Shown: positions 1-60,662 of the stretch, one piece after another
Numbering within the stretch: the stretch's first letter is position 1
Layout: every line of letters begins with the position of its first letter
NCBI GenBank assembly: GCA_000004985.1
Contig: GG738857.1
DNA length: 64,000 nt
DNA from: Naegleria gruberi
Taxonomy: Eukaryota
Strand: one strand, 5' to 3'
Position numbers and translations under genes: made by a program
Notes under the pieces: model-generated
What the model saw: the letters and a program-made list of their open reading frames with translations, nothing else
What the model was told of the DNA's origin: nothing
Databases searched by the model: none

Positions 1-998
1 CTGAAGAGTATGCATGTGGAGTCAAACTTCAATTCAACTCTACTTCACCCGTTCCAATTGCCAGAGTATTCTTAATTTTGCATGCCAATGTCAAAATTAT
101 TGACATGCATTTTAATACAAGAAAAGCACTTGGTAAACAACAACTAAGTGATTCTCAAATTAACAAATTGAACAAGTCAAAATCAATGCTTGGAATATTA
201 GATATAGTGAATGAATATGAACCAGTTGATAATTTAATACCAACGGGAGAGTTGACCATTACTTTGGAAGAATTTGGTGGGAAAATATTCGATCTCAAGA
301 TTTCACTTGCACTTTTCCAAAAAAGAATTGAGAATGGAAAGTCAACTTCTGGTTCATGTAGAGTGACTCAAGTGATTTGTGGCAGTACATGTCACATGTT
401 CTTATATTCAGAAGTTACAAAGAAGGATAAGAGAGGAGCTGAAAAGAGATTGAAGGAATATTGTTCAGATGATAATATTTCAGTAGATAATGTTGACAGC
501 TGTCAGACTAGAAGAAAAAAGAAAAAAGTCAATCAAACTCGTTGTAACTCAATTCAAATTAGAAACCAAATTTCATATGTTGAAAGATCAACTCAAATTG
601 AAAGTGAAAACACTTCAATGAGTTCATACTTTGATGAGAAATTTGAAAATATGTTTGCAGATGCTGAAATTTGCAATACTGTTTTTAATTCGAATCAATT
701 TAATCCAACTGTAGTGGAAACTAAACAGTCACCATGCGAAAGTTTCATTCTAGAGTCTGGTGAGGTTACTGATTTGGATATGGAACTTTTGAAGCTTTTG
801 GTTAATAATCTTCCTCCAGTCGAAACTGTGGATTATTCTGATGAGTTTTTATCTGAAAGCGATGTGAATTTAATTAGTCAATCAAGCTTTGATAGTTATC
901 TCAGTTCCAATAACAGTATGGATGATCTTCAAACAAATTGTTATATCTCACTACCTTGGTGTGATAAGTTTTATCTCTTTGATGTATTAGATCAATAA
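1..998 (+). CDS. Hypothetical protein, 5'-truncated by the window edge (codon_start 3). Paralog of the minus-strand CDS at 59110..60177.
   Basis: The reading frame is open from base 3 (EEYACGVKLQFNSTSPVPIARVFLILHANVK...) to the stop at 996-998. The protein is ~90% identical, and the DNA about 97% identical over the first ~240 nt compared, to the 59110..60177 gene on the opposite strand. The ORF-track start at 78 is a TTG. No recognisable domain. Confidence 0.6.
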   Translation, partial: EEYACGVKLQFNSTSPVPIARVFLILHANVKIIDMHFNTRKALGKQQLSDSQINKLNKSKSMLGILDIVNEYEPVDNLIPTGELTITLEEFGGKIFDLKISLALFQKRIENGKSTSGSCRVTQVICGSTCHMFLYSEVTKKDKRGAEKRLKEYCSDDNISVDNVDSCQTRRKKKKVNQTRCNSIQIRNQISYVERSTQIESENTSMSSYFDEKFENMFADAEICNTVFNSNQFNPTVVETKQSPCESFILESGEVTDLDMELLKLLVNNLPPVETVDYSDEFLSESDVNLISQSSFDSYLSSNNSMDDLQTNCYISLPWCDKFYLFDVLDQ

Positions 999-1080
999 AT
1001 TCATTTATTCTTATTTAGTTTAATTTAGTTTTAATTAAATAGAATGGACATGTCTTTGAAAAAGCAAACTCTAGAGCTCA

Positions 1081-4000
1081 TTACTCTTTATTTGAAATAG
1101 CCAATGGCTTCAAATGTTGCAAAATCTCATAAATTGAATAAACTCTCTCAATGTGATTTGCTTTGGAAAGTGAATTTGCAACAACCTTAATAGCAAATGC
1201 TCTATAATGCAATTCTGGATCGGATAATAAATAGAACTTGGCACTACAATATTTTCCTTTAGCATCCCATAATAATTGTTCTTCTTGTTTCTTATTTTCG
1301 TATCCGAATCTCAATTGACCTAAATCGAATTTCTTGGTAGATTCGTTTTCTTTTGTGATGGCAGAGTTGAAAAGAATTATTCCTTCACCAGATGGATCGG
1401 CTCTTACTCCAACAAATGAATTAATTCTATTCACATTATCCGAAACTTCAGCAAAGAAATCTTGGTCTCTCAATTTGGCTGTTTCCTTAAACTTTTGAGG
1501 ATCTTGAATTTCTTTCAATTCTGGATGCATATAAACTACTTCTACTGTTTTAGTTTCACCCAAAGAATCGACTAAACTAAACTTAAACGTACTAGGATAT
1601 GGGAAATAATGAGGAACCAAACTAGTAGCATGATTATTGTATTCTGGATTTTCTCCTTCGCAAATCGTCTTACCATTAACGTTATAATTAACAGTTTCGC
1701 CTGGATTAATATTGAAATTACTCAAATGCACATATTCACCTTGATCTGTGCTTTCTTTGTAAACTACTTCAACTTCTTCAGTGAACTTGTTCTTTACAAA
1801 GGTTTTAATGAGAGCTGGTTGCCAATAAGTAACATCTGCTGCATATGTGAAAGGAATCCATTTCTTATCATGATCTAAATATTCGATTTTCATGGAAACT
1901 ACTGAAATAGTTGTGTTGGTTGGGTTGACAAAACGAAGATTGAGAAGTTCGAATTCTACCTTACCAATGTTGATGTAGATTGGAGTGAAGGAGCTTCTGG
2001 TTTGGATATTGGTAGAGGTTGAGCTGTCAGGAAGAATAATATTGATTTGACTTGTTCCCGCCAAAATTGGGTTGACCAATTTGGATAGATCATTGTCAAG
2101 TTGTTTAACTGGACCCATTCCTTCAGAGATTGGTTTGAATTTTTCAGAGACGTATTTGGAATAGTACTTTTCCAAGGCAACCAAATCTTTGATATTGAGT
2201 TTATCGGTGGCAAAATCATGGTTGACTGGACGAAGTGTTCCAGTAACTGTTGGAGCAGCAATAAATTCACCAAAACCGAATAATTTGAAAGTACCTAATA
2301 ATAATACATCTCTTGTTTCAAATTTCCAATATTTTGCCTTAAATCCAGTTGAACTATCACTCAGTTCAAATCTATTCAAATTTGGATAAACTTTTGACTG
2401 TTCCATATTCTTACCAAATGGAATCCAAGGTTCATTAAGTCTAATCTTGTAATAAACTTGAATGTCTGAAGCGAATTTCTTTTGATTCTTTTCATCATAC
2501 AAGGCATGAGTATAATATTCAATATATTTAAAGAATTGAATTTTGTTGTAACCAATAATTAAAGTTCCATATTCAGAACAAATACCATATTCTGCTGAAT
2601 CATCCAATAGACCTGCGATGGTATTCTCAGCCCTTTGCTCAGTTTCAAGGGAGGATGGTTGCTTATTTCCCAAAACTTCATCCTCATCCAATCCAACATA
2701 AATTTCATCAGGAACTAGACAGTTGACTTGATTTCCCTTGTAAGGTGTCAAGTGGGGAGCTTCTTGTTGCTCTCTTGAGAGAATCACTCCGTTCAAACTA
2801 TTGTATGGAACGAAAGGAGCTACTGCAAAGAATTGAATCATGCCAAATGAGAAATCTCCACAAACTCTTTCGAATTTGAAGAATCGAGCATTGATTCCTT
2901 CTCCATCGAATTTGATAATGTTTAGTTTAGGCCAGTGATAGAAATTACCAGAAAGTGGTCGAACACGAGTCCACAGATCATTTTCATTAACTTTGGAGTA
3001 TAAAACGAGTGACGTTTTGAGCTCGTCCGAAAATTGAATCTTTTCATGTTTCATAAATTCAAAATATTTGAATTGGAAGACAGCTTCAAATTCGAGAATC
3101 AAATAATTGTGAACTGATTGAGCTATGGATGTACCGTATTTACCATTATCATCAAGAATACCCTCAATTGAGTTGTTTGCCTTATTTGAATTTTGGGAGG
3201 TGAGAATCTTGATTGGTGCAACAACATTCACATCAGGACAAGTGCTTTCCGTATAGATTGGATCCACAAGATTAGATGGAGAAAGTTTTGTAACTTGTGG
3301 ATTTTCCTTTCTACTCAATTCAACCTTAATCTCCTTATGCAACTCTGAACCAATCTTGACTTGTTGAGCTGGTGCAAATGCATAAAATCTCATCATACCT
3401 GCAGCTAACGTACCAGTCATTCCTTGATGTGGTTTTTGTACAAAACGAATGTGTTTTGCCTTCAAACCAACCTCACCAAAATCCAACATGAAAACTCCCT
3501 TAACACTTGTAGTAAGGGAATAAACTTTTCTGTAAGTAAGCCAATTATCTCTATTGGTGAGCTTGTATTCGACGAGTGTGTCGATGAGGGAGCAGGTTTG
3601 GTATCTTCCTGTGCCATCCTTTTTTTCGTATTGATCACTTTTTTCGTGGTTTCTGAAAGTCATGACTCTGAAATTGTAAACTCTGTCAAATGCCATTTCA
3701 ATGAATGAGGAAGTTCCGGAGCTTGTGCTGAATCCCTCTTTACCATCTGGTTTCGATAAATCTTCAATTGCTTTAGGGTCTGCTTTTTGACGTGCATTAG
3801 AAGTATTTCTATAAAGGGATACAGGTTTAATCAAGTTGATTTCTTGACATCCTGGATAGGGATCTTCCAAAAACTTTGCATATTCTTCTTTTGATAGAAG
3901 TGGACCAGACTTGGTTTTGACTGCTACGAATGGGGCGTATCCAAAAGGTCTAAACATACCAATTTCAAGGCAACTGTCAGCTGCCACCAATCTCAATCTC

Positions 4001-6117
4001 TTGGCCTTAATTGGTTCAGTAAATGTAATGGTATTCACAAGTGGACCAAGTTGAATAGAATCCTTCTCAATAGTACTAACCAAAGTCCATGGATCTGAAT
4101 CTTTTACCTTGGACTCAATCTTTGTACCTTTCAGATAAAAAACTGGATCATTCGAAAGTGACAAGGTCATGTATTCCACATGAGTAAGCAAGTAAACATG
4201 TTCAAATTCCAACTCAATTTCCTTTTGATGACTAGCAGTGGTGTAACCATAATCTCCAGAATCATCTAACAAACCTTCAACGGTATTTTCACGTCTTGAT
4301 TCTCCCTTAGAAATTAATTCCTTAATTGGAATGAGATTTACCTCTGGACCAGTGAATTTAGGTTCCCATTGGGCGAGTGCTTCTTTTACTGATAGGATAA
4401 CACCTCCTTTAGTTTGAATTGGAACATAGTCACAGTAGCCATATAGACGAATCATACCAAAAAAGAGATTTTCATTATCTTCCTTACAGAATCTCCAATA
4501 TCTTGCCTTAATTGGTGTTGTGAATTCAATAGTGTTGACTTGAGGACGTAATTTAATATCACTTCTCTTGATATGTCCATAAATTGTCCATGAATCACTT
4601 TCTTTCACTCTGTATTCGATTCTGACATTTTGTAAACAATCCAATTGCATGTTGTCTCCCAATTTACTGGACTTGTATTCCAAATAAGTGAACAAATACA
4701 CTGCGCCATATTTGATTTCAATGTAATTATTCGAACCTCTTGCTGTGCATGCTCCCAATTTACCAGAATCGTCGAATAATCCCTGGAGTGAGTTATCACC
4801 CCAAGTGTCCTTTGAGGATTGTTTTAATTCGAGAGGTGGAACACAGTTGATTTCACCTGAAGTGAATTTTGGTTCATCAGAAGATACAACAATTGGTTGA
4901 GAAGTTTGTGGTTGTTGAGCTATTACTGGTTGAGTAGTTTGTGGTTTAGGTTGAGTAGTGGTAACTGGAGTTTGTTGAACTACTGGTTGAGCAACTTGAG
5001 GTTTTGGAGTTGCAACCACTGGTTGTGAAACTACTGGTTGAACAACTGGTTGACTTGTTGTTGGTTGACTAGTTACTATTGGAGTTGCTTGAACAACAAC
5101 TGGAACTGAAGTTGTGCCAGATTGAGCATTATATCTAGAAACAACACCAGAAACAGTCTTGATATCAGTATATGGATGATAACCAAATAATTTCAACATT
5201 CCAATAAATAATTGGACGAATCCATTTCCTAATTTGGAGAATTTGAAAGCTCTTGCTTTAACTGGAGTATCAAAGTGAATATAGTTACTTTCTGGATGTT
5301 TCTTAATATCAGATTTCTTGATTTCTCTCAATGGAATCCATTCTTGACTTTCCAATTGTTTATATTCGATTTGGGTATTTTCCAATAACCCAAACTGATT
5401 ATTTTCTCCCAATCTACAAGCCTTAAATTCTAGTAAAGTAAACAAATAAACTCTATTGAACGTGAGAACAACATTCTGCTTCGATCCATTTTGAGTACAA
5501 ACACCATACTTTCCAGTTTCGTCTAACAATCCTTCAATGGTATTGTTTCCCCAAGTATCCTTGGATGATAATACCAATTTAGTAGGAGCTATAACACTAA
5601 TTTCACCTTCTGTGTATTGAGGTTCATCAAGATTATCAACAACTGCTGACTCTTGCACATTCGAAACTTGAATAATCTCACCAGCTTTAGTCTTGATATT
5701 CACAGGAAGAGCATCACTAGCTCTGACCCACAATCTACCAAACGCAACCTCACCCTTTCCAAATCTATCAAACTTAATAAAACGAGCAGCAACATTAAGA
5801 TTAATCAATTGAATACCATTTCCTTCTTTGAAAGAACAAACTGCCTTCCAAGGATCTGTTTCATTCGAACGAACACTAACATCGACACCTCTCAATCTCT
5901 GCTGATCATCAGGATACTTTTTGTTTGAAACACATTCCAATGTTGTGAATTGATAAATTCTATCAAATTTCAACTCGACATTAGGTTTCATAACATATTG
6001 AGTGGAACAACCATGTTGACCACTCTGATCTAATAATCCTTCGAGAGAGTTATCAGATTTCTTGCATGGATCTTTAACAATCAATGCAGTTGGCAAAACA
6101 ATAAAACCATCACTCAT
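1081..6117 (-). CDS. Giant repeat protein (~1678 aa) built from ~9 tandem ~180-aa modules resembling a galactose-binding-like fold (discoidin/F5-8 type C or APC10/DOC-like). It carries one Pro/Thr/Gln-rich mucin-like linker.
   Basis: A continuous 5 kb minus-strand ORF. The first in-frame ATG is at 6117 (MSDGFIVLPTALI...); the ORF-track start at 6144 is TTG. A recurring module signature runs N..EGLLDxSGxYG..T.......L.F..VYLFT.LEYK...LG.N.....L.N..IEY...ESD.W.......SDI.....N.I.F..PIKARY.RF...............LFGY, repeated about 9 times. The PxKARYxRF....LxGY core resembles the C-terminal strands of discoidin/DOC domains. The domain assignment is from memory, not an HMM search. Confidence 0.7.
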   Translation of the reverse strand: MSDGFIVLPTALIVKDPCKKSDNSLEGLLDQSGQHGCSTQYVMKPNVELKFDRIYQFTTLECVSNKKYPDDQQRLRGVDVSVRSNETDPWKAVCSFKEGNGIQLINLNVAARFIKFDRFGKGEVAFGRLWVRASDALPVNIKTKAGEIIQVSNVQESAVVDNLDEPQYTEGEISVIAPTKLVLSSKDTWGNNTIEGLLDETGKYGVCTQNGSKQNVVLTFNRVYLFTLLEFKACRLGENNQFGLLENTQIEYKQLESQEWIPLREIKKSDIKKHPESNYIHFDTPVKARAFKFSKLGNGFVQLFIGMLKLFGYHPYTDIKTVSGVVSRYNAQSGTTSVPVVVQATPIVTSQPTTSQPVVQPVVSQPVVATPKPQVAQPVVQQTPVTTTQPKPQTTQPVIAQQPQTSQPIVVSSDEPKFTSGEINCVPPLELKQSSKDTWGDNSLQGLFDDSGKLGACTARGSNNYIEIKYGAVYLFTYLEYKSSKLGDNMQLDCLQNVRIEYRVKESDSWTIYGHIKRSDIKLRPQVNTIEFTTPIKARYWRFCKEDNENLFFGMIRLYGYCDYVPIQTKGGVILSVKEALAQWEPKFTGPEVNLIPIKELISKGESRRENTVEGLLDDSGDYGYTTASHQKEIELEFEHVYLLTHVEYMTLSLSNDPVFYLKGTKIESKVKDSDPWTLVSTIEKDSIQLGPLVNTITFTEPIKAKRLRLVAADSCLEIGMFRPFGYAPFVAVKTKSGPLLSKEEYAKFLEDPYPGCQEINLIKPVSLYRNTSNARQKADPKAIEDLSKPDGKEGFSTSSGTSSFIEMAFDRVYNFRVMTFRNHEKSDQYEKKDGTGRYQTCSLIDTLVEYKLTNRDNWLTYRKVYSLTTSVKGVFMLDFGEVGLKAKHIRFVQKPHQGMTGTLAAGMMRFYAFAPAQQVKIGSELHKEIKVELSRKENPQVTKLSPSNLVDPIYTESTCPDVNVVAPIKILTSQNSNKANNSIEGILDDNGKYGTSIAQSVHNYLILEFEAVFQFKYFEFMKHEKIQFSDELKTSLVLYSKVNENDLWTRVRPLSGNFYHWPKLNIIKFDGEGINARFFKFERVCGDFSFGMIQFFAVAPFVPYNSLNGVILSREQQEAPHLTPYKGNQVNCLVPDEIYVGLDEDEVLGNKQPSSLETEQRAENTIAGLLDDSAEYGICSEYGTLIIGYNKIQFFKYIEYYTHALYDEKNQKKFASDIQVYYKIRLNEPWIPFGKNMEQSKVYPNLNRFELSDSSTGFKAKYWKFETRDVLLLGTFKLFGFGEFIAAPTVTGTLRPVNHDFATDKLNIKDLVALEKYYSKYVSEKFKPISEGMGPVKQLDNDLSKLVNPILAGTSQINIILPDSSTSTNIQTRSSFTPIYINIGKVEFELLNLRFVNPTNTTISVVSMKIEYLDHDKKWIPFTYAADVTYWQPALIKTFVKNKFTEEVEVVYKESTDQGEYVHLSNFNINPGETVNYNVNGKTICEGENPEYNNHATSLVPHYFPYPSTFKFSLVDSLGETKTVEVVYMHPELKEIQDPQKFKETAKLRDQDFFAEVSDNVNRINSFVGVRADPSGEGIILFNSAITKENESTKKFDLGQLRFGYENKKQEEQLLWDAKGKYCSAKFYLLSDPELHYRAFAIKVVANSLSKANHIERVYSIYEILQHLKPLAISNKE
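4880..5110 (-). repeat. Low-complexity coding repeat (P/T/Q/V-rich linker, PVVQ/TSQP units) inside the 1081..6117 gene.
   Basis: Nucleotide-level tandem degenerate units (ggttgagtagtttgtgg / actggttgagcaac...) that translate to VVQATPIVTSQPTTSQPVVQPVVSQPVVATPKPQVAQPVVQQTPVTTTQPKPQTTQPVIAQQPQTSQP. Confidence 0.7.
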
Positions 6118-6482
6118 TTTTTTTATGTTGTGGTTGACTAACAATGAATGTGAACAAAGTGTTTTATAGGTTTACTAATATGGAAGGTGGACTGGTTAGT
6201 GGAAAGAACAAGTTGCGAACTGGACAATGTTTGTGAAACATTTTGATGAATCAAGTTGGATGTGATCTATTCGCAATGGGCATGATCGTATATTAGAAAG
6301 TTGTAAAGTTGTGATTTACAGTTCTATCTACAGTTCCTAACAGATCCAAAAGACAACAACATTAGGAACATTTCGGAACCCTGCATTGTTACTGTAAATT
6401 GCATTGTATTCGATAACCATGTGTCATTACTGTAAATTTCGAATAGATTTTAAATTTTTAATTAAAATAAAATTAAAAAAAA

Positions 6483-14000: not shown

Positions 14001-16516
14001 TTATTGTTTGAGTTTTCTATTTTCCTCTTCCAATATTTTAATTCTTTCTAACAGGTTGCTATTTTCCATGGTGTTTTCATCCAAAAGTTTATATAGGTTG
14101 GTGTTTTCCTCTGCGAGTTTGGTATTTTCATCCGAAAGTTTATCAACTTCCTCTGCAAGTTGAGAGTAACTTCTTAATGGTGATATTTTCTTCAATTCTC
14201 CAACTTGTTTTTCAATATTCAAAGTGATATCTTTGATTTCACCTTTCAAGTATTTCAAAATATTCTCAATGGTTAACTTGTGAGAATAACAATTCAATCT
14301 TTTTGATGAATCTCTTTGAATCATGCTAATAATGCTTCTAATCAATATATTATTCACTCCTAAATCTGGATTAATTGATTGATTGATTAGTTTTTCAATT
14401 GCATAATGTAATTTCATTTCTCCCTCTGTTGTTGTCACAACTGTATAGAAATATTTTCCATGTCCACTTAAATATGGATACTTGTCATTATATTTAGAGA
14501 CATCTGGATCATTAACAAATGTTGAACATAGTTGCAGAGGACAATTTGCTAATAATTTCAATAAAATACATCCCAATGAAAATATATCACATGAAATGGT
14601 AATTTGTCCAACATTGTGAGCAAGCTTTTCATCATTATCACTTTTCAATAAATCATCAGAATAATTATCATGTGAAACTTCAGGAGACATGTAGGCAAAC
14701 TTTCCACGAGCAATTGTAATTGAATTACCTGTCTTGATAACTCTTGATGTTTCAAAATCAATTATCTTGTATAAATCTTGAACTTTGACAATATTTTGAG
14801 GATCTAAATCTCTGTGTAAAATATTGTGATCATGAATTGATTGAACTGAGTTCAATACTTTGATAAATATATCAAGAATTTCAATCAACTTTTCCTTAAT
14901 AATGAATCCATTTCTATAAATTCCATCTTGATTATTTCTTGAAATATAATTTGATAATGATTCCTCTCCAAGTTCCATCACTGTATACAAATGATTTTGA
15001 ATAATGTCACAATCAAAACATTTGATCTTTCCTTCAATGTCTGTTCTTTTCAATAAATTAATGGTTTCTTTTGTTGATTCTTCAGATTCCTCTGGGTCAT
15101 ATTTTAATTTTAATGCCCTTAATGATTTACTACTTTTGTGAAATACTTTGAATGCAACACCTTCACCTCCATATCCTAATACTGAAATGAAATCATAATT
15201 ATATTTGAAATAATTATAGAAATAATTGAGAGCTTTGAATACTTTTGATAAATCTCCTCTCAGCTCATTATATTTACAAATTATTTGTTTGTAATTTACA
15301 AATGTTTTCTCATTTTCAAACCACTTGTTGGCAAAATTCATAATTTCATTAATTTCCTGTTTTGAATAAAATGATGTTTCGAAATTTGTTGCAACTTGTT
15401 CCACAATATTCTTCAAATCTTTCATTCTTGTTGATTGACAGGGATTATCTTCAATAAATTTGTCCAATCTGAAACAAAATAAATAATAGTTAGCTCTTTC
15501 TGAAAGAACATTTTCAGTGGATAATTCTGAATGGTTCATTTGTTTCAATATTTGAAAAAAAATCAACTTTTCAACAAATATTGGTGTGTAGATAGGATTA
15601 AAATTGAATATTGTACTTTTTGGTGTTGGATTAAAGAGACTTGTTAATTCAATACCATAATATAAATCCTTTTCATCCATAAATATTTTGGAGTATTGTT
15701 CAATTATATTGCTTGACAGCTTTGTCTGAAGATTAATGGATTCTTCAATGGTTTTGGTTATAGAGGGTGAGAACCTTCTTGCATTTTCCTTGTTCAATTT
15801 AATTAATAAATAAATAAATATACTATCTTTTTTAAATGATTCATCAGCATGCTTAAGTGCCAATCCAGCTTGTTTAACAGATTCCAATATAAATTCTCTA
15901 TCTTTTTTCAATGATGAATCAGCATATTCAAGTGCATATCCATCTTGTTTGACAGACTCCAATACAATTTCTCTATCTTTTTTAAATGATGAATCAGCAA
16001 ATTCAAGTGCCAATCCATCTTGTTTGACAGATTCCAATACAATTTCTCTATCTTTTTTAATATTGAATCAGCAAATTCAAGTGCCAATCCATGTTGTTTA
16101 ACAGATTCCAATATAAATTCTCTATCCTTTTTCAATGATGAATCAGCATATTTGAGTGCTGGTCCATAGCGTATAACAGCTTCCAATATAATTTCTCTAT
16201 CTTTTTCCAATGATGAATCAACATATAAAAGTGTCAATCCATTTTGTTTAATAGCTTCCAACACAATTTCTCTATCTTTTTTAAATGCTGGATCAGCATA
16301 TTGAAGTGCCAACCCATTTTGTTTAACAGCTTCCAATACAATTTCTCTATCTTTTTTCAATGATGAATCAGCATTTTCAAGTGTTGATCCATTTTGTTTA
16401 ACAGCTTTCAACACATATTTCCTATCGGCCTATTGTTGCAATCATGAATCATCACACCAATAAAAATAATTATTTTCTCCACAGCAACAAATACCAACCC
16501 ACTCGTTTTTGTTCAT
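14001..16516 (-). pseudogene. Copy A of the DUF4116-repeat/atypical-kinase gene. Only ~8 repeats, and a 1-bp deletion near 16050-16055 shifts the frame (ORFs 14001..16037 and 15908..16414).
   Basis: The kinase domain and C-terminal coiled coil are about 95% identical to copy B. The repeat frame is broken where ttttttaa-tattgaatcagc replaces the unit sequence ttttttaaatgatgaatcagc. The conserved 5' block containing ATGAACAAAAACGAGTGG is present at 16516..16499. It could be a sequencing error in a repeat instead of true pseudogenisation. Confidence 0.55.
15790..16414 (-). repeat. Tandem 75-bp coding repeats (25-aa DUF4116-like units), ~8 copies, copy A.
   Basis: A 75-bp period (ttgtttaacagcttccaata(c/t)aatttctctatcttttttaaatgatgaatcagcatattcaagtgccaatcca...) encoding AVKQNGLALEYADSSFKKDREIVLE. 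Confidence 0.8.
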
Positions 16517-17598
16517 TTTTTTAAAGGTATTCTAGACCATCACATTCCGAATCAACTTGATGATTTTTACACCCAAAAAGAACAGTTTCAACTATTACAG
16601 ATGGGTTTTTTTGTTATTGGACGCCATCACATGATCTGTTAAGATTTGCATCCTCTTCTTGTTGATCCATTATGAATTGCTCCTCATCATCTGATTCCGA
16701 GGATCAGAACCAAGCTCTCTCAATCAAATCATCCACCATTAAATCTTGCTCATCTACTTCTGAATTCAACTTCTTAGTCACTCCTTGTTGTGTTTGATAA
16801 GGAATTTATTGCCTAATTTTTGATATATATTTTCAAATGTATGGAGTGTTCCTTTGTGTTGGTGTTTTCTCTATTTTTTTAGGCTTTGAAATAAGGCGCT
16901 AAGATCCACTCATTGATACTGATGAACCATGATCTCAATGAGGTCGAGGAAGATGGATCGAAGAAGAAGCCTATTGATGAATCATCACATAATTGGCATC
17001 ATGATGAAAATAGCAGTCTGGTTGACAGCTGTGTATGTGTAAATAACATCATTATTACTATTCATCTAGCGTTTACTCAATTCATATTCATTCTTATCAT
17101 GTGATTACATAGCTTATTAACCATTACGAACCGTGTGGTCCCATTCTTGCTCTGAATATAAAATTAAAAACCGATCAAAGTTGGTGGCAAGAATGAAAAA
17201 TTTACAAAATCGATCACAAATAAAATAAAATTCAAGTTTTGGTCACCAAAACGACCAAAACGCAGACCAAACAAGTTATTCAAGTTATTGTTGCTTTGAT
17301 TTTTAAATAATATATTTGATAAAATAAAAAGAATAAAAACGGAGCGCGGGAATAAAATTGTAGATGAAGCTTAACATATTGTAAATTTATTGTAAAGTAA
17401 TCTTTTTATGGTTGCATACTTTAATAACAAGCATCATGAATTGCTAGGCAACTCAAGAGTCACTTTAGGGTTGTAATATTTGGTATTGTTGCTGTGTTAC
17501 TATTATCTTTTTTAGAATGCATCCTTTTTTGTCATTTCCATTTCAGTCTTTGTGAAGAAACCTTTCGAATAGAGAAATTGCAAACAAAGAAACAAAAA

Positions 17599-18726
17599 AT
17601 GGGTGGAAAGCTCTCTTCGAATCACAATCATCATCAACACTCCAACAACACTCCACTTCTGCAACAAACTAAACATTCGAATAACAATGACAATCATCAG
17701 AGAATAGTTTTACTGGGAAATACTTCAAGTGGAAAGTCAACTATTTGTGAAATGATTCAATATCAGAAACAACATCAAGCAGATAAATCATGCAATACTT
17801 ACAACCTATTCTATAAGGTAGATTCGAATACAATTTCAAAAACTATTATTGAACAGATATTGTTTGCATCAAAGGATATATCTATTGAGGCAATTATTCG
17901 AGAATATACAAATGATTGCAATAATTTTGATAATTCTACACTTTTTGCATTGTGGAATGATCAGAAATTTAGAAATATTTATCAGAGCTGTCAAGATTCT
18001 CTCAATTTATTCGAAAATGTTGACATTTTTGTAAGGAAACTTAAGAATCATGAAAGTTTCATTCCAGATATTTACATTAAGGGAAATTCTTCTGGAATTA
18101 CAGAGTATGACATTAATTTTGATGACAAGAAAGTGACATTTGTGACTGCAGGTGGAAAAACAAGTGAAAGAAAAAAGTGGAATTTCTGCTTGCAAGGAAA
18201 TGTTTCCGTTTTGGTTTATGTTGTTTCGTTGGCAGAATTCAATCAATCAGGTTATGGAGATGAGAAGGTGAATAGAATGGACGAAAGTTTGAAACTTTAC
18301 AAGGAATTGATGACTCGTGTTTCGAATAGTGGTAATAATACGAGAGTTGTCTTACTGTTTACCAAACCAGATATAATGATGAGGAAACTGAGGAGTTACA
18401 TTGAATTTGGAAGATTATTCGAAACTGAAACACTTACTGATCTTTCACGAATTGTAAACGATTATCACGAAAGGGATGTTCTCAATACAATTATATCGAG
18501 TTTTTTAACCGAAACAAATAATATTTATGGGAAAATACCAGAATATCACATTATTCAGTCGATATCAGAATTGGACATTTCACAACTCGCCAAACTAATG
18601 TTGAATAATGAGAAAAATAGACATTATATTTCTAATTGCTTGTTTGAGAAAATATCGCTTGTGAGATGTTATCAATTAGTGATGGCTCAACAATTGACCG
18701 ATTTAACAATTAAGTGTCAATTATAA
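17599..18726 (+). CDS. Divergent heterotrimeric G-protein alpha-subunit-like protein (376 aa) with substitutions at catalytic positions.
   Basis: ATG at 17599 gives MGGKLSS, the consensus for N-myristoylation and S6. G1 is LLGNTSSGKSTICEMI, compared with the canonical LLLGAGESGKST. The switch II region reads FVTAGGKTSERKKWNFCLQGNVSVLVYVVSLAEF, compared with the canonical [32 protein letters not shown]. G4 reads LLFTKPD, compared with the canonical FLNKKD. The ORF-track start at 17494 is a TTG. The catalytic Gln of DVGGQ is Lys (TAGGK), and switch I (IKGNSSGITEY) lacks the RxxTxGI arginine. Convergent with kinase copy B across a 231-bp spacer. Confidence 0.65.
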   Translation: MGGKLSSNHNHHQHSNNTPLLQQTKHSNNNDNHQRIVLLGNTSSGKSTICEMIQYQKQHQADKSCNTYNLFYKVDSNTISKTIIEQILFASKDISIEAIIREYTNDCNNFDNSTLFALWNDQKFRNIYQSCQDSLNLFENVDIFVRKLKNHESFIPDIYIKGNSSGITEYDINFDDKKVTFVTAGGKTSERKKWNFCLQGNVSVLVYVVSLAEFNQSGYGDEKVNRMDESLKLYKELMTRVSNSGNNTRVVLLFTKPDIMMRKLRSYIEFGRLFETETLTDLSRIVNDYHERDVLNTIISSFLTETNNIYGKIPEYHIIQSISELDISQLAKLMLNNEKNRHYISNCLFEKISLVRCYQLVMAQQLTDLTIKCQL

Positions 18727-18957: not shown

Positions 18958-21900
18958 TTAATTTTGTTTGAGTTTTCTATTTTCCTCTTCTAATACTTTA
19001 ATTCTTTCTAATAGGTTGGTATTTTCCTCTACAAGTTGAGAGTAGCTCCTTAATGGTGAGATTTTCTTCAATTCTCCAACTTGTTTTTCAATATTGAAAG
19101 TGATATCTTTGATTTCACCTTTCAAAAATTTCAAAATATTCTTAATTGTTAACTTGTGAGAATAACAATTCAATCTTTTTGATGAATCTCTTTGAATCAT
19201 GCTAATAATGCTTCTAATCAATATGTTATTCACTCCTAAATCTGCATTAATCGTTTCATTGATTAGTTTTTCAATTGCATAATGTAATTTCATTTCTCCC
19301 TCTGTTGTTGTCACAACTGTATAGAAATATTTTCCATGTCCACTAAAATATGGATACTTGTCATTATATTTAGAGACATCTGGATCATTAACAAATCTTT
19401 CACACAATTGCAAAGGACAATTGGTTAATAATTTCAACAAAATGCATCCCAATGAAAATATATCACATGAAATGGTAATTTGTCCAACATTGTGAGCAAG
19501 TTTTTCATTGTCATCACTTTTCAATAAATCATCAGAATAATTATCATGTGAAACTTCAGGAGACATGTATGCAAACTTTCCACGAGCAATTGTAATTGAA
19601 TTACCTGTCTTGATAACTCTTGATGTTTCAAAATCAATAATTTTGTAATGATCTTGAACTTTGACAATATTTTGAGGATCTAAATCTCTGTGTAAAATAT
19701 TGTGATCATGAATTGATTGAACAGAGTTCAATACTTTGATAAATATTTCAAGAATTTCAATCAACTTTTCCTTATTAATGAATCCATTTCTATAAATTCC
19801 ATCTTGATTATTTCTTGAAATATAATTTGATAATGATTCCTCTCCAAGTTCCATCACTGAATATAAATGATTTTGAATAATTTCACAATCAAAACATTTG
19901 ATCTTTCCTTCAATGTCTGTTCTGTTCAATAAATTAATGGTTTCTTTTGTTGATTCTTCAGATTCCTCTGGATTATATTTTAATTTTAATGCCCTTAATG
20001 ATTTACTACTTTTGTGAAATACTTTGAATGCAACACCTTCACCTCCATATCCTAATACTGAAATGAAATCATAATTATATTTGAAATAATTATAGAAATA
20101 ATTGAGAGCTTTGAATACTTTTGATAAATCTCCTCTCAGCTCATTATATTTACAAATTATTTGTTTGTAATTATCAAATGTTTTCTCATTTTCAAACCAC
20201 TTGTTGGCAAAAATCATAATTTCATTAATTTCCTGTTTTGTATAAAATGACGTTTCAAAGTTTGTTGCAACTTGTTCCACAATATTCTTCAAATCTTTCA
20301 TTCTTGTTGATTGAGAAGGATTATCTTCAAGAAATTTATCCAATCTGAAACAAAATAAATAATAGTTAGCTTTGGTGCTTTGTAAATCAATTAGAGCAAT
20401 AATATCATTAGACAATTCTGAATGGTTCATTCGTTTCAATATTTGAAAAATAATCAATTTTTCAACAAATATTGGTGTGTAGATAGGATTAAAATTGAAT
20501 ATTGTACTTTTTGGTGTTGGATTAAAGAGACTTGTTAATTCAATAGCATAATATAAATCTTTTTCATCCATAAATATTTTGGAGTATTGTTCAATTATAT
20601 TGCTTGACAGCTTTTTCTGAATATTTAAGCATTCTTCAATGGTTTTGGATATAGAAGGTGAGAACTTTCTTGCATTTTCTTTGTTCAATTTAAATAGCAA
20701 ATAAATAAATTCTCTATCTTTTTTAAATGATGAATCAGCGTATTCAAGTGCTCGTACATTTTGTTTAACAGCTTCCAATACAATTTCTCTATCTTTTTTC
20801 AATAATGAATCAGCATATTTAAGTGCATATCCATCTTGTTTGACAGTTTCCAATATAAATTCTCTATCTTTTTTAAATGATGAATCAGCGTATTCAAGTG
20901 CTCGTACATTTTGTTTAACAGCTTCCAATACAATTTCTCTATCTTTTTTCAATAATGAATCAGCATATTCAAGTGTCAATCCATTTTGTTTAACAGTTTC
21001 CAATATAATTTCTCTATCTTTTTTAAATGATGAATCAGCATATTCAAGTGCCAATCCATTTTGTTTAACAGCTTCCAATATAATTTCTCTATCTTTTTTC
21101 AATAATGAATCAGCATATTCAAGTGCCAATCCATTTTGTTTGACAGCTTCCAATATAAATTCTCTATCTTTTTTAAATGATGAATCAGCATATTGAAGTG
21201 CTCGTACATTTTGTTTAACAGCTTCCAATATAATTTCTCTATCTTTTTTCAATGATGAATCAGCATATTGAAGTGCTCGTCCATTTTGTTTAACAGCTTC
21301 CAATATAAATTCTCTATCTTTTAGAAATGATGAATCAGCATATTTAAGTGCATACCCATCTTGTTTAACAGCTTCCAATATAAATTCTCTATCTTTTTTA
21401 AATGATGAATCAGCATATTTAAGTGCATATTCATTTTGTTTAACAGATTCCAATATAATTTCTCTATCTTTTTTAAATGATGAATCAGCATATTTAAGTG
21501 CCAATCCATTTTGTTTAACAGCTTCCAATATAATTTCTCTATCTTTTTTCAATATTGAATCAGCGTATTCAAGTGCCCACCCATTTTGTTTAACAGCTTC
21601 CAATATAAATTCTCTATCTTTTTTAAATGATGAATCAGCATATTGAAGTGCCAATCCATTTTGTTTAACAGCTTCCAATATAATTTCTCTATCTTTTTTA
21701 AATGATGAATCAGCATATTCAAGTGCCAATCCATGTTGTTTAACAGCTTCCAATACAATTTCTCTATCTTTTTTAAATGATGAATCAGCGTATTCAAGTG
21801 CATATCCATTTTGTTTAACAGCTTCCAATATAATTTCTCTATCTTTTTTCAATAATGAATCAGCGTATTCAAGTGCTGGTCCATAGCGTTTAACAGCTTC

Positions 21901-22533
21901 CAATACAATTTCTCTATCTTTTTTAAATGATGAATCAGCATATTGAAGTGCCCACCCATTTTGTTTAACAGCTTCCAATACAATTTCTCTATCCTTTTTA
22001 AATGATGAATCAGCATCTTCAAGTGCCGATCCATTTTGTTTAACAGCTTCCAATATAATTTCTCTATCTTTTTTAAATGATGAATCAGCAAATTCAAGTG
22101 CCAATCCATTTTGTTTAACAGCTTCCAATATAATTTCTCTATCTTTTTTAAATGATGAATCAGCGTATTGAAGTGCCAATCCATAGTGTTTAACAGCTTC
22201 CAATATAATTTCTCTATCTTTTTTCAATAATGAATCAGCGTATTCAAGTGCTGGTCCATAGCGTTTAACAGCTTCCAATACAATTTCTCTATCTTTTTTA
22301 AATGATGAATCAGCATATTGAAGTGCCCACCCATTTTGTTTAACAGCTTCCAATACAATTTCTCTATCCTTTTTAAATGATGAATCAGCATCTTCAAGTG
22401 CCGATCCATCTTGTTTAACAGCTTCCAACACATATTTCCTATCGGCCTATTGTTGTGATCATGATCATCACATTTTATATAATAATTATTTCACCACACA
22501 GCAACAAATACCAACCCACTCGTTTATGTTCAT
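18958..22533 (-). CDS. Copy B (intact) of the DUF4116-like repeat / atypical protein kinase / coiled-coil gene. Main exon 18958..22456 (~1166 aa), plus a proposed 18-nt 5' exon at 22516..22533.
   Basis: A single 3.5 kb ORF carries ~23 repeats of (E)AVKQNGxALEYADSSFKKDREIILE and a helical linker. The kinase domain has glycine loop LGYGGEGVAF, beta3 RALKLK, HRDLDPQN, DFETSR, YMSPE and DIFSLGCIL. The C-terminus LVEENTNLLERIKVLEEENRKLKQN is a coiled coil. A TAG stop sits immediately upstream in the repeat frame, and there is no in-frame ATG in 1.7 kb of repeats. A conserved ATG at 22533 is proposed to splice in across a 59-nt intron (GTTGGT...caacaatag). Confidence 0.75.
20690..22456 (-). repeat. 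Tandem 75-bp coding repeat array (~23 units, DUF4116-like), copy B.
   Basis: A perfect 75-bp periodicity, with mostly synonymous variation and a few replacement changes (N/D/H/Y, L/W/R, E/Q/K) between units. Both the repeat frame and the +1 frame of the same strand are open over long stretches. Confidence 0.85.
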
Positions 22534-28537: not shown

Positions 28538-29030
28538 CGGAATATTCACTTCTGGAATTACAGAGTATGACATTAATTTTGATGACAAGAAAGTGACATT
28601 TGTAACTGCAGCTGGAAAAACAAGTGAAAGAAAAAAGTGGAAATGTTTCCGTTTTGGCAGAATTCAATCAAACAGGTTATGGAGATGAGAAGGTGAATAG
28701 AATGGATGAAAGTTTGAAACTTTACAAGGAATTGATGACTCGTGTTTCGAATAATGGTAATAATACAAGAGTTGTCTTACTGTTTACTAAACCAGATATA
28801 ATGATGAGGAAATTGAGGAGTTACATTGAATTTGGAAGATTATTCGAAACTGAAACACTTACTGATCTTTCACGAATTGTAAACGATTATCACGAAAGGG
28901 ATGTTCTCAATACAATTATATCGAGCTATTTGAATGCAATAAATAATATTTATGGGAAAATACCAGAATATCACATTATTCAGTCGATATCAGAATTGGA
29001 CATTTCACAACTCGCCAATGTTGAATAATG
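28538..29030 (+). pseudogene. Truncated pseudo-copy of the G-alpha-like gene, homologous to 18090..18726 and lacking the N-terminal GTP-binding half.
   Basis: Sequence from ttctggaattacagagtatgacattaattttgatgacaag onward is ~95% identical to 18090-18726. It has a ~35-bp internal deletion (aatttctgcttgcaaggaaatgtttccgttttggtttatgttgtttcgttggcagaattc becomes aaatgtttccgttttggcagaattc) and a divergent C-terminus. 3'-UTR homology continues to ~29190. Upstream of 28538 the homology is replaced by retroelement-derived sequence. Confidence 0.7.
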
Positions 29031-58399: not shown

Positions 58400-59089
58400 A
58401 TGTCTCAAGTTAAAACAGCTCACGATTTGCACAGTTCCGATGCCAGACCAGCAAAAGAAATTAAAAAATTAGATTCCGATGGAAATTACACACCATTTGA
58501 AGGGTTGACCATTGTTATGCAAATTTGTGAACAAGATTTGAAATTTGGTGAAAGATTATTCAAGGATTTGGAGAGTACAGTCCCAAAGAAGGCTCACTCC
58601 TTGTTACCTTATCAGAGTTATCATGTGACATTGTGTGGACTTGTTTGTAGAAATCATTTTGAATCTTGTCAAGATTACAATAATTTCATTGATGAACATT
58701 ATGAAAATTTGAAAAAATTACAACAAGAATTGGATCAAATTTGTGGAAATTCTCAAATAACCTATCGTGTTGATACGGAAACTATGAAAAAATCAAGTCT
58801 TTCCAAATTGACTGGTCATTTACTTGTGAGAAATAACGATTCTGCAGAATTACTCAACAAATGTTTTGAGAAATGTAAGGAAATTCTCAAAATTGATTTG
58901 AGAATGAGTGAAGCTCATTTGAGTTTGGCTTATCCACCTCCAAAAGGAAAGAAGATGAATGCAGAGCAACGTAAAACAGTTCAACAAGTGATGGATAAAC
59001 ACTTTGATTCGAGTTGTGTCTTGGTTTTTGAAAGACCTAGAATTTGCTTTTTCAAAGACATGTGCGAATTCATTCCAATATTTAATTAA
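58400..59089 (+). CDS. 2H-phosphoesterase-superfamily-like protein (two H-x-T/S-x motifs), 229 aa.
   Basis: ATG at 58400. YHVTLCGL and AHLSLAYPP give the two H-x-[TS]-x motifs ~90 residues apart, typical of LigT/CPDase/AKAP18-type 2H enzymes. Identification is by motif only. Confidence 0.4.
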   Translation: MSQVKTAHDLHSSDARPAKEIKKLDSDGNYTPFEGLTIVMQICEQDLKFGERLFKDLESTVPKKAHSLLPYQSYHVTLCGLVCRNHFESCQDYNNFIDEHYENLKKLQQELDQICGNSQITYRVDTETMKKSSLSKLTGHLLVRNNDSAELLNKCFEKCKEILKIDLRMSEAHLSLAYPPPKGKKMNAEQRKTVQQVMDKHFDSSCVLVFERPRICFFKDMCEFIPIFN

Positions 59090-59109
59090 ACTAAATATTA
59101 AACTAAAGG

Positions 59110-60177
59110 TTAATTTATAGTAGAAAATTGATCTAACACATCAAAGGGATTATTCTGTGCACACCAAGTTAGTGAGATATTACAATTTGTTTGAAGATCA
59201 TCAATACTGTTATTGGAACTATCAAAACTTGATTGACTAACTAAATCAAGGTCGCTTTCAGATAAAAACTCATCAGAATCATCCACAGTTTCGACTGGAG
59301 GATGATCATTAACCAAAAGCTTCAAAAGTTCCATTTCCAAATCAGTAACCTCACCAGACTCTAGAATGAAACTTTCGCATGGTGATTGTTTAGTTTCCAC
59401 TACAGTTGGATTCAATTGATTCGAATTAAAAACAGTATTGCAAATTTCAGCATCTTCAAACAAATTTTCAAATTTCTCATCAAGGTATGAACTCACTGAA
59501 GTGTTTTCACTTTCAATTTGAGTTGATCTTTCAACATATGAAATTTGGTTTCTAATTTGAATTGAGTTACAACGAGTTTGATTGACTTTTTTCTTTTTTC
59601 TTCTAGTCTGACAGCTGTCAACACTATCTACTGATATACTATCATCTGAACAATATTCCTTCAATCTCTTTACAGCTCCTCTCTTTACCTTCTTTGTAAC
59701 TTCTGAATACAAGAACATGTGACATGTACTGCCACAAATCACTTGTGTCACTCTACATGAACCAGAACTTGTCTTTCCCTTCTCAGTTCTCTTTTGGAAA
59801 AGTGCAAGTGAAATCTTGAGATCAAATATTTTCCCACCAAATTCTTCCAAAGAAATGGTCAACTCTCCAGTTGGTCGTAATTTATCAACAGGCTCATATT
59901 CATTCACTATATCTAATATTCCAAGCATTGATTTTGACTTGTTCAATTTGTTAATTTGAGAATCGCTAAGTTGTTGTTTACCAAGTGCTTTTCTTGTATT
60001 AAAATGCATGTCAATAATTTTGACATTGGCATGTAAAATTAAGAATACTCTGGCAATTGGAACGGGTGAAGTAGAGTTGAATTGAAGTTTGACTCCACAT
60101 GCATACTCTTCAGTTGTCAAATCATGTCCAATATTGTACTCTTTCATAACAAGTGACATTTCTCTTTTCTCTCTCAC
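59110..60177 (-). CDS. Hypothetical protein, 355 aa, full-length paralog of the truncated CDS at 1..998 (inverted orientation).
   Basis: ATG at 60177 (MREKREMSLVMKEYNIGHDLTTEEYACGVKLQF...). It is ~90% identical in protein to the window-start gene and diverges only in the last ~25 residues. A basic RRKKKKVNQTR patch suggests an NLS. Convergent with 58400..59089 across a 20-bp spacer. Confidence 0.6.
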   Translation of the reverse strand: MREKREMSLVMKEYNIGHDLTTEEYACGVKLQFNSTSPVPIARVFLILHANVKIIDMHFNTRKALGKQQLSDSQINKLNKSKSMLGILDIVNEYEPVDKLRPTGELTISLEEFGGKIFDLKISLALFQKRTEKGKTSSGSCRVTQVICGSTCHMFLYSEVTKKVKRGAVKRLKEYCSDDSISVDSVDSCQTRRKKKKVNQTRCNSIQIRNQISYVERSTQIESENTSVSSYLDEKFENLFEDAEICNTVFNSNQLNPTVVETKQSPCESFILESGEVTDLEMELLKLLVNDHPPVETVDDSDEFLSESDLDLVSQSSFDSSNNSIDDLQTNCNISLTWCAQNNPFDVLDQFSTIN

Positions 60178-60566
60178 AAATTTTCAGTTTAAAGTCGAGT
60201 TGTTTTTTTGTGTTTTTGAAATCAAATACTTTGCTGGATTTTAAGCATTCACGCATATGATTGTTGTGTTGTGGTGCATACTACAAAGCTCTCGATCACG
60301 ATTGTGCTTTTTTAATTCACGAAGCAAAAGCACGTTTTTTCTTCAGATCACGATTGTGCTTCACGAAGATGTAACTTCCCTTTTTGGAACGAACGTGTTT
60401 TGTAATGGTGGCAAGAGCAAATTTTTATTTTACAGTACCTCCGAGAGAATACATTTAAAATAACAACAAGAGCAACAATATACAATTTCAAACAGCATCT
60501 TACCACTTTTATTCTTTCTAAGATGTAATAAATGAATACAAAGAGAGCATTATTGTTGTGAATGTA

Positions 60567-60639
60567 GCCCGTCTAGCTCAGTCGGTAGAGCGCAAGGCTC
60601 TTAACCTTGTGGTCGTGGGTTCGACCCCCACGGTGGGCG
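60567..60639 (+). tRNA. tRNA-Lys (anticodon CTT), 73 nt.
   Basis: GCCCGTCTAGCTCAGTCGGTAGAGCGCAAGGCTCTTAACCTTGTGGTCGTGGGTTCGACCCCCACGGTGGGCG folds into a cloverleaf. A 7-bp acceptor stem with two G-U pairs. D arm GCTC/GAGC. Anticodon stem CAAGG/CCTTG with loop CTCTTAA. T arm GTGGG/CCCAC. A box TAGCTCAGTCGG. B box GGTTCGACCCC. It closely resembles metazoan tRNA-Lys-CTT. Confidence 0.92.
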
Positions 60640-60662
60640 ATTTCATTTTGTTTGCCCGTTTT

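What the first reader, a model, noticed from the sequence alone, without database searches (positions are those of the whole stretch)
1..998. Inverted segmental duplication (~1 kb, about 97% identical) flanking the 59-kb region
The 5'-truncated gene at 1..998 (+) and the gene at 59110..60177 (-) are near-identical. By eye they are about 97% identical at the DNA level over the first ~240 nt compared and ~90% at the protein level. They diverge only in the last ~25 codons and the 3' flank. Recent inverted repeats of this size can mediate inversion of the intervening segment. The 59-kb interval between them contains all the rearranged features listed here: cassette duplications, retroelement debris and the split P450.
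Basis: seen in the sequence. Interest (0 to 1): 0.5.

Follow-up and report, generated by a model that had tools for sequence, protein, structure and literature searches.

The report
Inverted orphan-gene duplicate in Naegleria
Two inverted copies of a Naegleria-only gene of unknown function lie 58 kb apart; the duplication is real, fairly old and retained, which makes it an ordinary gene duplicate, and nothing shows that it flips the DNA between the copies.

Summary
The inverted repeat is real. Window 1-1074 (+) matches 60113-59037 (-); the core is 897 nt at 96%, and identity falls to 85% and then about 73% at the 3' end and flank. The right copy is identical to Naegleria gruberi XP_002679637.1 (NAEGRDRAFT_57501, "predicted protein"). 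It has no Pfam domain, no PDB relative and no homologue outside Naegleria among 1.8 billion representative proteins. It is not a large family and shows no mobile-element hallmark.

Contigs from a closely related Naegleria in one ENA metagenome carry both loci with the same inner junctions. In the 3' third, 33 informative sites group orthologues and none group paralogues, so the duplication predates that lineage split and is not an assembly artefact. Both copies are under purifying selection (dN/dS 0.37, dS 0.094).

The left locus keeps a relic of the right neighbour's last codons, so the right locus is the source. The related left-locus contig continues upstream through a tRNA-Lys(CUU), which suggests a repeat unit of about 1.6 kb extending beyond the window edge.

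That contig is also mosaic: right-like 5', left-like 3' (p=0.0026). This could be exchange between the copies or a metagenome-assembly mosaic. Inversion of the interval is untested and unsupported. Low interest.

The parts
1..998 (+). Left copy of the duplicated gene, cut at its 5' end by the window edge (codons 17-347 plus stop at 996-998)
   Evidence: Translation. Arm of inverted repeat I1/I2. 97.5% identical to metagenome contig L001, which carries the complete 347-aa ORF P0001.
999..1074 (+). Left 3' flank still inside the repeat. On the minus strand at 1031-1072 it holds a non-coding relic (RVCFFKDMSILFN*) of the right neighbour's C-terminus.
   Evidence: blastn end point 1074, alignment, six-frame comparison with RICFFKDMCEFIPIFN*.
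1081..6144 (-). Left neighbour, a 1687-codon ORF with F5/8 type C (discoidin) modules. Its stop codon lies 6 nt beyond the inner repeat boundary. Unique sequence that marks the left junction.
   Evidence: Pfam PF00754, E=3.3e-20. The junction is reproduced in the independent contig L001; orthologue identity 98.5% nt, dS 0.040.
59037..59109 (.). Right 3' flank inside the repeat. 59037-59089 is also the last 17 codons plus stop of the convergent neighbour gene.
   Evidence: blastn end point 59037, ORF 58400-59089, C-terminal translation.
58400..59089 (+). Right neighbour, a 229-aa ORF with a borderline 2H-phosphodiesterase-like match. Intact and 99% identical in the related strain. Marks the right junction.
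   Evidence: Pfam PF08975, 21.1 bits against a cut-off of 21. P0003/L002. 4 differences in 690 nt.
59110..60159 (-). Right copy, complete: 349 aa plus stop. Identical to N. gruberi XP_002679637.1 / NAEGRDRAFT_57501.
   Evidence: tblastn 100% over 349 aa.
60160..60566 (-). Upstream (promoter / 5' UTR) region of the right copy. A homologous stretch lies upstream of the left-locus gene in the related strain, so it is probably part of the duplicated unit.
   Evidence: L001 75-472 aligns here: 364 matches, 17 mismatches, 45 gap positions.
60567..60639 (+). tRNA-Lys(CUU). Probable outer end of the duplicated unit.
   Evidence: ARAGORN and Rfam RF00005, 66.4 bits. An identical tRNA sits at L001 2-74, and L001 ends 1 nt past it.

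Best explanation
The window is Naegleria gruberi nuclear DNA. A segment of about 1.6 kb was copied once, in inverted orientation, to a site about 58 kb away, 6 nt downstream of the stop codon of a discoidin-repeat gene. The segment holds the last ~50 nt of a 229-aa neighbour gene, a lineage-restricted 349-aa gene (NAEGRDRAFT_57501), its upstream region and probably a tRNA-Lys(CUU). The right locus (59037-60640) is the source and the left locus (1-1074 and beyond the window edge) is the derived copy. The event predates the split between strain NEG-M and a closely related Naegleria lineage. Since then both copies have been kept as intact genes under purifying selection. The patchy identity along the repeat (100% to 92% to 100% to 94% to 85% to 73%) reflects uneven constraint and possibly occasional exchange between the copies in the 5' two-thirds. 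Shown: the repeat itself, its inner boundary, that the family is small, that both junctions are conserved in a second lineage, dN/dS below 1, and the relic of the neighbour's CDS. Inferred: the direction of copying, the outer boundary at the tRNA, and exchange between the copies. The protein's function is unknown. Its layout is a conserved N-terminal ~150 residues, an RRKKKK basic patch and an acidic Ser/Asp/Glu-rich tail, which is compatible with a nuclear protein, but that is only a guess.
For: Repeat and boundaries. Organism and gene identity: the cluster member P0002 is XP_002679637.1 of N. gruberi on a 573,072-bp scaffold, 100% identical to the right copy. Small family: the only hits are the P0001/P0002 cluster among 5.8 billion clustered proteins, and P0001 plus the fragment P0004 among 1.84 billion representatives read exhaustively by HMMER; there are two copies in the window. 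Independent confirmation of both junctions comes from ENA assembly ERZ929261: L001 carries tRNA-Lys, upstream region, gene and discoidin gene (97.5% to window 1-2216); L002 carries the 209-aa ORF, the 229-aa gene and a right-type 3' end (97.7% to window 57166-59439). Age: quartet analysis of the 3' third gives 33 sites for (left,L001 | right,L002) and 0 for the paralogue grouping; paralogues are 89% identical and orthologues 97.7-99%. Selection: left vs right dS 0.094, dN 0.035, dN/dS 0.37, with dN = 0 in the first 67 codons compared; ORFs are intact in both strains. Direction: the left locus has the non-coding relic RVCFFKDMSILFN* of the right neighbour's C-terminus RICFFKDMCEFIPIFN*, which is coding and conserved at the right locus in both strains. 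Outer boundary: L001 carries an identical tRNA-Lys at 2-74 and stops 1 nt beyond it.
Against: The part of the left copy upstream of window position 1 was never seen in NEG-M itself. Its extent rests on L001, whose 5' part is right-like and could be a chimeric or bubble-merged metagenome path. In that case neither the tRNA linkage nor the 1.6-kb size is established for the left locus. The direction-of-copying argument assumes the 229-aa ORF's C-terminus is ancestral, and no outgroup homologue exists to check this (one search found only the strain-2 orthologue). The left copy is absent from the annotated N. gruberi proteome. That could mean it is incomplete in the assembly, for example at a scaffold end, or simply unannotated, as the 229-aa neighbour also is. 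Copy number elsewhere in the NEG-M genome could not be checked at the DNA level, and the related strain has a third, degenerate variant (L003).
Confidence: 0.75

Rival explanations
1. The two arms are an active recombination substrate. Reciprocal crossover between them inverts the 58-kb interval, so strains or cells differ in its orientation.
For: The related strain's left-locus contig L001 is right-like 5' of left position ~490 (17 right-type vs 7 left-type sites) and left-like 3' of 618 (2 vs 14). A maximum-chi-square breakpoint test gives permutation p=0.0026. The switch falls in the 127-nt tract that is identical between the NEG-M arms. A second contig, L003, carries left-type sequence at 323-490 followed by two right-type sites, which resembles the reciprocal product. 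L001's non-coding upstream differs from the NEG-M right upstream at about the orthologue level: 95.5% there against 94% for the orthologous 3' flank. Naegleria encodes homologous-recombination, crossover and mismatch-repair genes (PMC9928731).
Against: No contig links either arm to unique outer flank, so orientation was never observed; L001 stops at the tRNA and L004 stops 474 nt short of it. Non-reciprocal gene conversion gives the same mosaic. So would MEGAHIT merging of about 95%-identical paralogue paths; the contig names carry k127, and the identical tract in NEG-M is exactly 127 nt. L003 has 147-nt and 41-nt deletions and differs from L002 at 2 of 114 overlapping positions, so it is not simply the reciprocal product. 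The 3' third shows no exchange since the lineages split, 0 of 33 sites. From general knowledge of mitotic recombination in yeast and mammals, 4.5% divergence and perfect tracts of 127 nt or less strongly depress recombination.
Confidence: 0.12
2. Assembly artefact: the left copy is a mis-joined allelic haplotig or a collapsed or duplicated repeat in the draft N. gruberi scaffold, and not a second locus.
For: The scaffold is a draft with 50-N gaps at 30807-30856 and 49199-49248 and a single N at 63867. N. gruberi is a heterozygous diploid (PMC9928731). The left copy has no annotated protein. About 4% divergence is in the range of alleles.
Against: The two copies have entirely different inner neighbours. 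Each junction is reproduced in an independently sequenced and assembled organism (L001 and L002). The 3' ends differ by indels, by stop position, and by 11% in the 3' third, where the two types stay distinct in both strains.
Confidence: 0.03
3. The unit is a copy of a mobile element or of a large dispersed family, for example a tRNA-associated element, and the two copies in this window are a coincidence.
For: A tRNA gene sits at the probable outer edge. A third, degenerate variant (L003) exists in the related strain. Genome-wide DNA copy number in NEG-M could not be measured.
Against: The protein has no transposase, integrase or reverse-transcriptase domain; Pfam gives only a sub-threshold 19-bit chance match. 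No terminal inverted repeats or target-site duplication are apparent at the inner boundary. The inner end lies inside another gene's coding sequence, which fits copying of a piece of chromosome and not a discrete element. There is one annotated protein in the species and no relatives elsewhere.
Confidence: 0.05

Closest known systems
Dispersed (segmental) gene duplicates retained as paralogues, with or without interlocus gene conversion; N. gruberi's own near-identical alpha-tubulin gene copies are one example (PMC2115128, abstract seen)
   Same: A chromosomal segment was copied with its gene, upstream region and a fragment of the neighbouring gene. Both copies are intact and under purifying selection. 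Identity along the copies is patchy.
   Different: There are only two intact copies and they are inverted. The gene is a taxonomically restricted orphan, not a conserved housekeeping family. Gene conversion is suggested but not demonstrated. The 3' third evolves strictly by orthology.
Inverted low-copy repeats that mediate inversions by non-allelic homologous recombination (for example human F8 int22h repeats, the Xq28 emerin/filamin repeats, plastid IR flip-flop); recalled from general knowledge, not tested here
   Same: Two inverted arms flank a unique interval of tens of kb. The mosaic contig L001 would fit a crossover inside the arms.
   Different: The known examples have arms of about 10 kb or more at over 99% identity and have demonstrated orientation isomers. 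Here the arms are about 1-1.6 kb at about 95%, the longest perfect tract is 127 nt, and no second orientation has been seen.
Taxonomically restricted (orphan) protein-coding genes
   Same: No detectable homologue outside the N. gruberi lineage in exhaustive searches. No domain, no solved relative, and an AlphaFold model at mean pLDDT 32. It nevertheless evolves as a coding sequence (dN/dS 0.22-0.37).
   Different: Nothing unusual for this class. The function is untested.

Membership tests
Inverted repeat / inverted segmental duplication | Two stretches in opposite orientation with similarity far above chance | tested here: met
   897 nt at 96% ungapped; 1074 nt at 92% gapped, E=0.
Inverted repeat / inverted segmental duplication | Defined boundaries with unrelated flanks on both sides of each arm | tested here: inconclusive
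   The inner boundary is sharp at 1074 / 59037 with unrelated neighbours. The outer boundary of the left arm lies outside the window. L001 suggests it is the 3' end of tRNA-Lys, but L001 may be chimeric.
Inversion-mediating (recombinogenic) inverted repeats | Both orientations of the intervening segment observed | not testable with these tools
   No reads, no second NEG-M assembly, and no strain-2 contig that joins an arm to unique outer flank. The N. gruberi genome is not in the contig index.
Inversion-mediating (recombinogenic) inverted repeats | Long tracts of perfect or near-perfect identity (hundreds of nt or more) | tested here: not met
   The longest identical runs inside the window are 127, 79, 71 and 65 nt. 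There are 40 differences in 897 nt.
Inversion-mediating (recombinogenic) inverted repeats | Sequence evidence of exchange between the arms (mosaic or concerted evolution) | tested here: inconclusive
   L001 is a mosaic with breakpoint p=0.0026, but it comes from a k=127 metagenome assembly. The 3' third shows 0 of 33 sites supporting concerted evolution.
Large dispersed gene family | Many paralogues in the genome or in relatives | tested here: not met
   One annotated N. gruberi protein, two copies in the window, three sequence variants in the related strain, and none elsewhere. Genome-wide DNA copy number was not testable.
Mobile genetic element | Element-encoded transposase, integrase or reverse transcriptase, and terminal repeats or a target-site duplication | tested here: not met
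   No Pfam domain above cut-off. The inner end lies inside a neighbouring gene's CDS, and no terminal repeat is seen there. The outer end was not available.
Assembly artefact (mis-joined haplotig) | Junctions not reproducible in independent data | tested here: not met
   Both inner junctions are reproduced in L001 and L002 from an independent organism and assembly.
Pseudogene copy | Disrupted reading frame or neutral evolution (dN/dS near 1) | tested here: not met
   The left ORF is open over all 331 codons visible and over 347 aa in L001. dN/dS is 0.37 for left vs right and 0.24 for left vs L001. By contrast, L003 in the related strain is degenerate.

The most novel reading that the evidence does not exclude
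The two arms do recombine. L001 (right-type 5' joined to left-type 3' and the discoidin gene) and L003 (left-type 5' followed by right-type sites) would then be the two products of a reciprocal crossover. That would mean the 58-kb interval, carrying about 25 genes, has opposite orientation in two closely related Naegleria lineages: a natural inversion polymorphism mediated by a 1.6-kb gene-plus-tRNA repeat in a protist whose sexual cycle has never been observed.
Probability: 0.1. Interest if true: 0.35.

Novelty: new member of a known kind. Interest (0 to 1): 0.15.

Why it matters
The importance is modest. The work shows that an apparent "recent inverted segmental duplication" is a retained, older duplicate of an orphan gene. 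It identifies an unannotated second copy of NAEGRDRAFT_57501, probably with a second tRNA-Lys(CUU), in the N. gruberi genome. It gives a small, well-bounded case in which the direction of a duplication can be read from a relic of the neighbouring gene. If the mosaic seen in the related strain is real, it would be direct sequence evidence for ectopic homologous exchange in Naegleria, an organism in which recombination is inferred mainly from gene content and heterozygosity. The case also warns that paralogues around 95% identical can appear as mosaic contigs in metagenome assemblies.

Tried and rejected
1. Extending the window. Exact-protein look-ups for the right copy, for P0002 and for the F-box/LRR gene found no N. 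gruberi contig on record, so the left arm's upstream sequence in NEG-M could not be recovered.

2. Finding more strains. A protein-pattern scan and an exact 21-mer scan of JGI metagenome contigs both returned nothing.

3. Outer flank in the related strain. The 100-aa ORF at 61191-61493 led to contig L004, which covers 62062-61114 only and does not reach the tRNA.

4. Protein function. Pfam gave only a 19-bit sub-threshold match. The PDB sequence search gave only a chance E=0.063 hit. The exhaustive HMMER search found no distant relatives. AlphaFold2 on the 3-sequence alignment gave mean pLDDT 32.2 and pTM 0.29, too poor for a fold search, so none was run.

5. Positive selection as the cause of the cluster of differences at left 221-490. 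Rejected, because dN/dS there is 0.33.

6. Treating the 127-nt identical tract alone as proof of gene conversion. Rejected, because at dS about 0.09 only 2-3 synonymous differences would be expected there, so their absence is not significant.

7. Literature. No paper mentions NAEGRDRAFT_57501 or PRJEB11402, and none was found on inverted repeats in Naegleria assemblies.

Full report
**Observation**

The window contains one large inverted repeat. The repeat finder gives arms 1-897 / 59217-60113 (897 nt, 96% complementary, no gaps) and a continuation at 894-996 / 59127-59229 (85%). Gapped blastn joins these into 1-1074 versus 60113-59037 (92.3%, E=0). No other part of the window matches the first 6.5 kb. 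tblastn with the protein finds only these two copies.

There are 40 differences in the 897 ungapped positions. Identity by 100-nt bin is 99, 98, 92, 94, 93, 100, 96, 97 and 91%. The longest identical runs are 127 nt (491-617), 79, 71 and 65 nt. The last ~33 codons differ by a 9-nt indel, several substitutions and the position of the stop, and the 76-nt 3' flank is about 73% identical. Divergence is not limited to the 3' end, however, and the right gene starts at the ATG at 60159, not the GTG at 60177.

**What and where**

The window is AT-rich (27-37% G+C). It carries eukaryotic genes: F-box/LRR, G-alpha, protein kinases, Myb, P450 and TLC.

The 349-aa product of the right copy has a single cluster of relatives among 5.8 billion clustered proteins. 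One member of that cluster, P0002, is XP_002679637.1 / NAEGRDRAFT_57501, "predicted protein" of Naegleria gruberi, on a 573,072-bp scaffold. It is 100% identical to the right copy. The window is therefore N. gruberi NEG-M draft sequence. It contains two 50-N gaps (30807-30856 and 49199-49248) and one isolated N.

The protein is an orphan:
- No Pfam family reaches its cut-off.
- It has no relative among PDB sequences.
- An exhaustive HMMER pass over 1.84 billion representatives returned only P0001 and a 102-aa fragment, P0004.
- AlphaFold2 gave mean pLDDT 32.

Its layout is a strongly conserved N-terminal ~150 residues, an RRKKKK patch and an acidic Ser/Asp/Glu-rich tail. That would fit a nuclear protein, but this is conjecture.

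**Independent contigs from a second lineage**

All non-NCBI relatives come from one ENA metagenome assembly (ERZ929261, run ERR1078381).

- **L001** (2736 nt) is 97.5% identical to window 1-2216. It carries a complete 347-aa gene followed by the convergent discoidin-repeat gene, so it is the left locus. Its first 518 nt, which lie beyond the window edge, align to 60640-60114. That stretch is the upstream region of the right copy plus an identical tRNA-Lys(CUU).
- **L002** (2283 nt) is 97.7% identical to window 57166-59439. It carries the 209-aa ORF, the 229-aa neighbour gene and 345 nt of a right-type 3' end, so it is the right locus.

Both inner junctions are thus reproduced in an independently sequenced organism. 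This rules out a mis-join in the NEG-M scaffold.

Over the stretch covered by all four sequences, 33 informative sites group (left, L001 | right, L002) and none groups the paralogues. Orthologues there are 97.7-99% identical and paralogues 89%. The duplication therefore predates the split of the two lineages. The synonymous divergence at that split is about 0.04 in the flanking discoidin gene, while the paralogues have dS 0.094.

**Selection**

For left versus right, dN is 0.035, dS 0.094 and dN/dS 0.37. dN is 0 in the first 67 codons compared. Comparisons with L001 give dN/dS of 0.22-0.24. All reading frames are open. Both copies behave as functional genes.

**Direction and extent of the copy**

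At the right locus the repeat's inner 52 nt are the last 17 codons of the convergent 229-aa gene (...RICFFKDMCEFIPIFN*). That gene is intact and nearly invariant in both lineages. At the left locus the homologous stretch (1031-1072, minus strand) reads RVCFFKDMSILFN*. There it lies after the stop codon of the discoidin gene and is non-coding. The simplest reading is that a piece of the right locus, including the tail of its neighbour, was copied to the left site.

The outer end is not visible in the window. L001 ends 1 nt beyond the tRNA, which suggests the two loci diverge there. That gives a unit of about 1.6 kb, equivalent to 59037-60640. This is an inference and depends on L001 being a faithful contig.

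**Exchange between the arms**

L001 is a mosaic. 5' of left position 490 it carries the right-type base at 17 of 24 sites that distinguish the arms. 3' of position 618 it carries the left-type base at 14 of 16 sites (breakpoint permutation p=0.0026). In the 275 alignment columns equivalent to about left 221-495, L001 is 97.1% identical to the right arm and only 93.1% to its supposed orthologue, the left arm.

A third contig from the same sample, L003 (651 nt, with 147-nt and 41-nt deletions), has left-type sequence in that stretch.

Three explanations remain:
- gene conversion;
- a reciprocal crossover, which would mean inversion of the interval;
- a mosaic produced when the assembler (contig names carry k127) merged two ~95%-identical paralogue paths.

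I cannot separate these without reads. Naegleria does encode recombination, crossover and mismatch-repair genes (PMC9928731), so exchange is plausible. It has not occurred in the 3' third since the lineages split.

**Inversion hypothesis**

No data here show a second orientation. No contig joins an arm to unique outer flank: L001 stops at the tRNA, and L004 covers 62062-61114 only. From general knowledge, arms of 1-1.6 kb with 4.5% divergence and perfect tracts of 127 nt or less are weak substrates for homologous recombination. I rate inversion polymorphism at about 10-12%.

The other rearranged features in the interval are tandem or dispersed copies of DUF4116-repeat kinase and G-alpha genes, plus a P450 ORF. 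They have no demonstrated connection to the repeat.

**Verdict**

This is a real, moderately old, retained inverted duplicate of a Naegleria-specific orphan gene, probably copied together with a tRNA-Lys. The right locus is the source. It is an ordinary kind of feature, a new member of a known kind, and of low interest. The one open and mildly interesting point is whether the mosaic left-locus contig in the related strain reflects true exchange between the arms.

Noticed in passing
window 60706-60845 (-): A U4 spliceosomal snRNA gene (Rfam RF00015, 53.3 bits against a gathering score of 46, full-length model match) lies 66 nt beyond the tRNA-Lys, convergent with it, just outside the probable outer edge of the repeat. 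Whether the left locus also has a U4 copy is unknown.
   Followed up: no
window 14001-16414 (-), 18958-22579 (-), 29466-31894 (-); 17494-18726 (+), 28624-29028 (+): Three paralogous genes that combine a protein-kinase domain with long arrays of DUF4116 repeats, seen as about 48 copies of a 75-nt period at 88-95% identity. They are interleaved with one complete and one fragmentary G-alpha gene. One of the genes is interrupted by a 50-N gap.
   Followed up: partly
window 30807-30856, 49199-49248, 63867: Two 50-N scaffold gaps and one single N. Both gaps lie inside the interval between the inverted arms and inside ORFs (a DUF4116-kinase gene and a Myb gene). The order and orientation of the pieces therefore rest on the original scaffolding.
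   Followed up: no
window 58400-59089 (+) and 57441-58070 (-): Two intact ORFs of 229 aa and 209 aa have no N. gruberi protein in the database. Their only relative is the strain-2 orthologue on L002, with 4 of 690 and 6 of 630 nt differences; all 6 in the second ORF are synonymous. They are probably unannotated genes. The 229-aa one has a borderline 2H-phosphodiesterase (PF08975) match at 21.1 bits.
   Followed up: partly
L003 1-651 (ENA ERZ929261 k127_404475): A third variant of the duplicated gene in the related strain. It has 147-nt and 41-nt internal deletions that break the frame and a mixture of left-type and right-type sites. It may be a degenerate third copy, an allele or an assembly product.
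   Followed up: partly
L004 963-1037 vs window below 61114: The strain-2 contig covering the right outer flank is only 93.3% identical to NEG-M over 62062-61114 and has 15 gap openings. Its last 75 nt do not align to the window at all. This intergenic stretch differs structurally between the two lineages.
   Followed up: no
window 1081-6144 (-): A 1687-codon uninterrupted ORF built from repeated ~190-aa modules. Two stretches match F5/8 type C (discoidin), and there is a Pro/Gln/Thr/Val-rich linker. The C-terminal 377 codons are conserved in strain 2 (dN/dS 0.22).
   Followed up: no
window 46599-47069 (-) and 47131-48024 (-): The first ORF matches the C-terminal part of cytochrome P450 (PF00067 positions 275-411, E=8e-36). 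The adjacent upstream ORF gave no Pfam hit at E<=0.001. Whether this is a gene with an intron or a disrupted gene was not examined.
   Followed up: no
window 60270-60360 (-) / L001 290-340: The upstream region of the right copy contains a short direct repeat, 'gcacaatcgtgatc', present twice about 45 nt apart. One copy falls within an 18-nt stretch that is absent from L001. It could be a promoter element or a slippage product.
   Followed up: no
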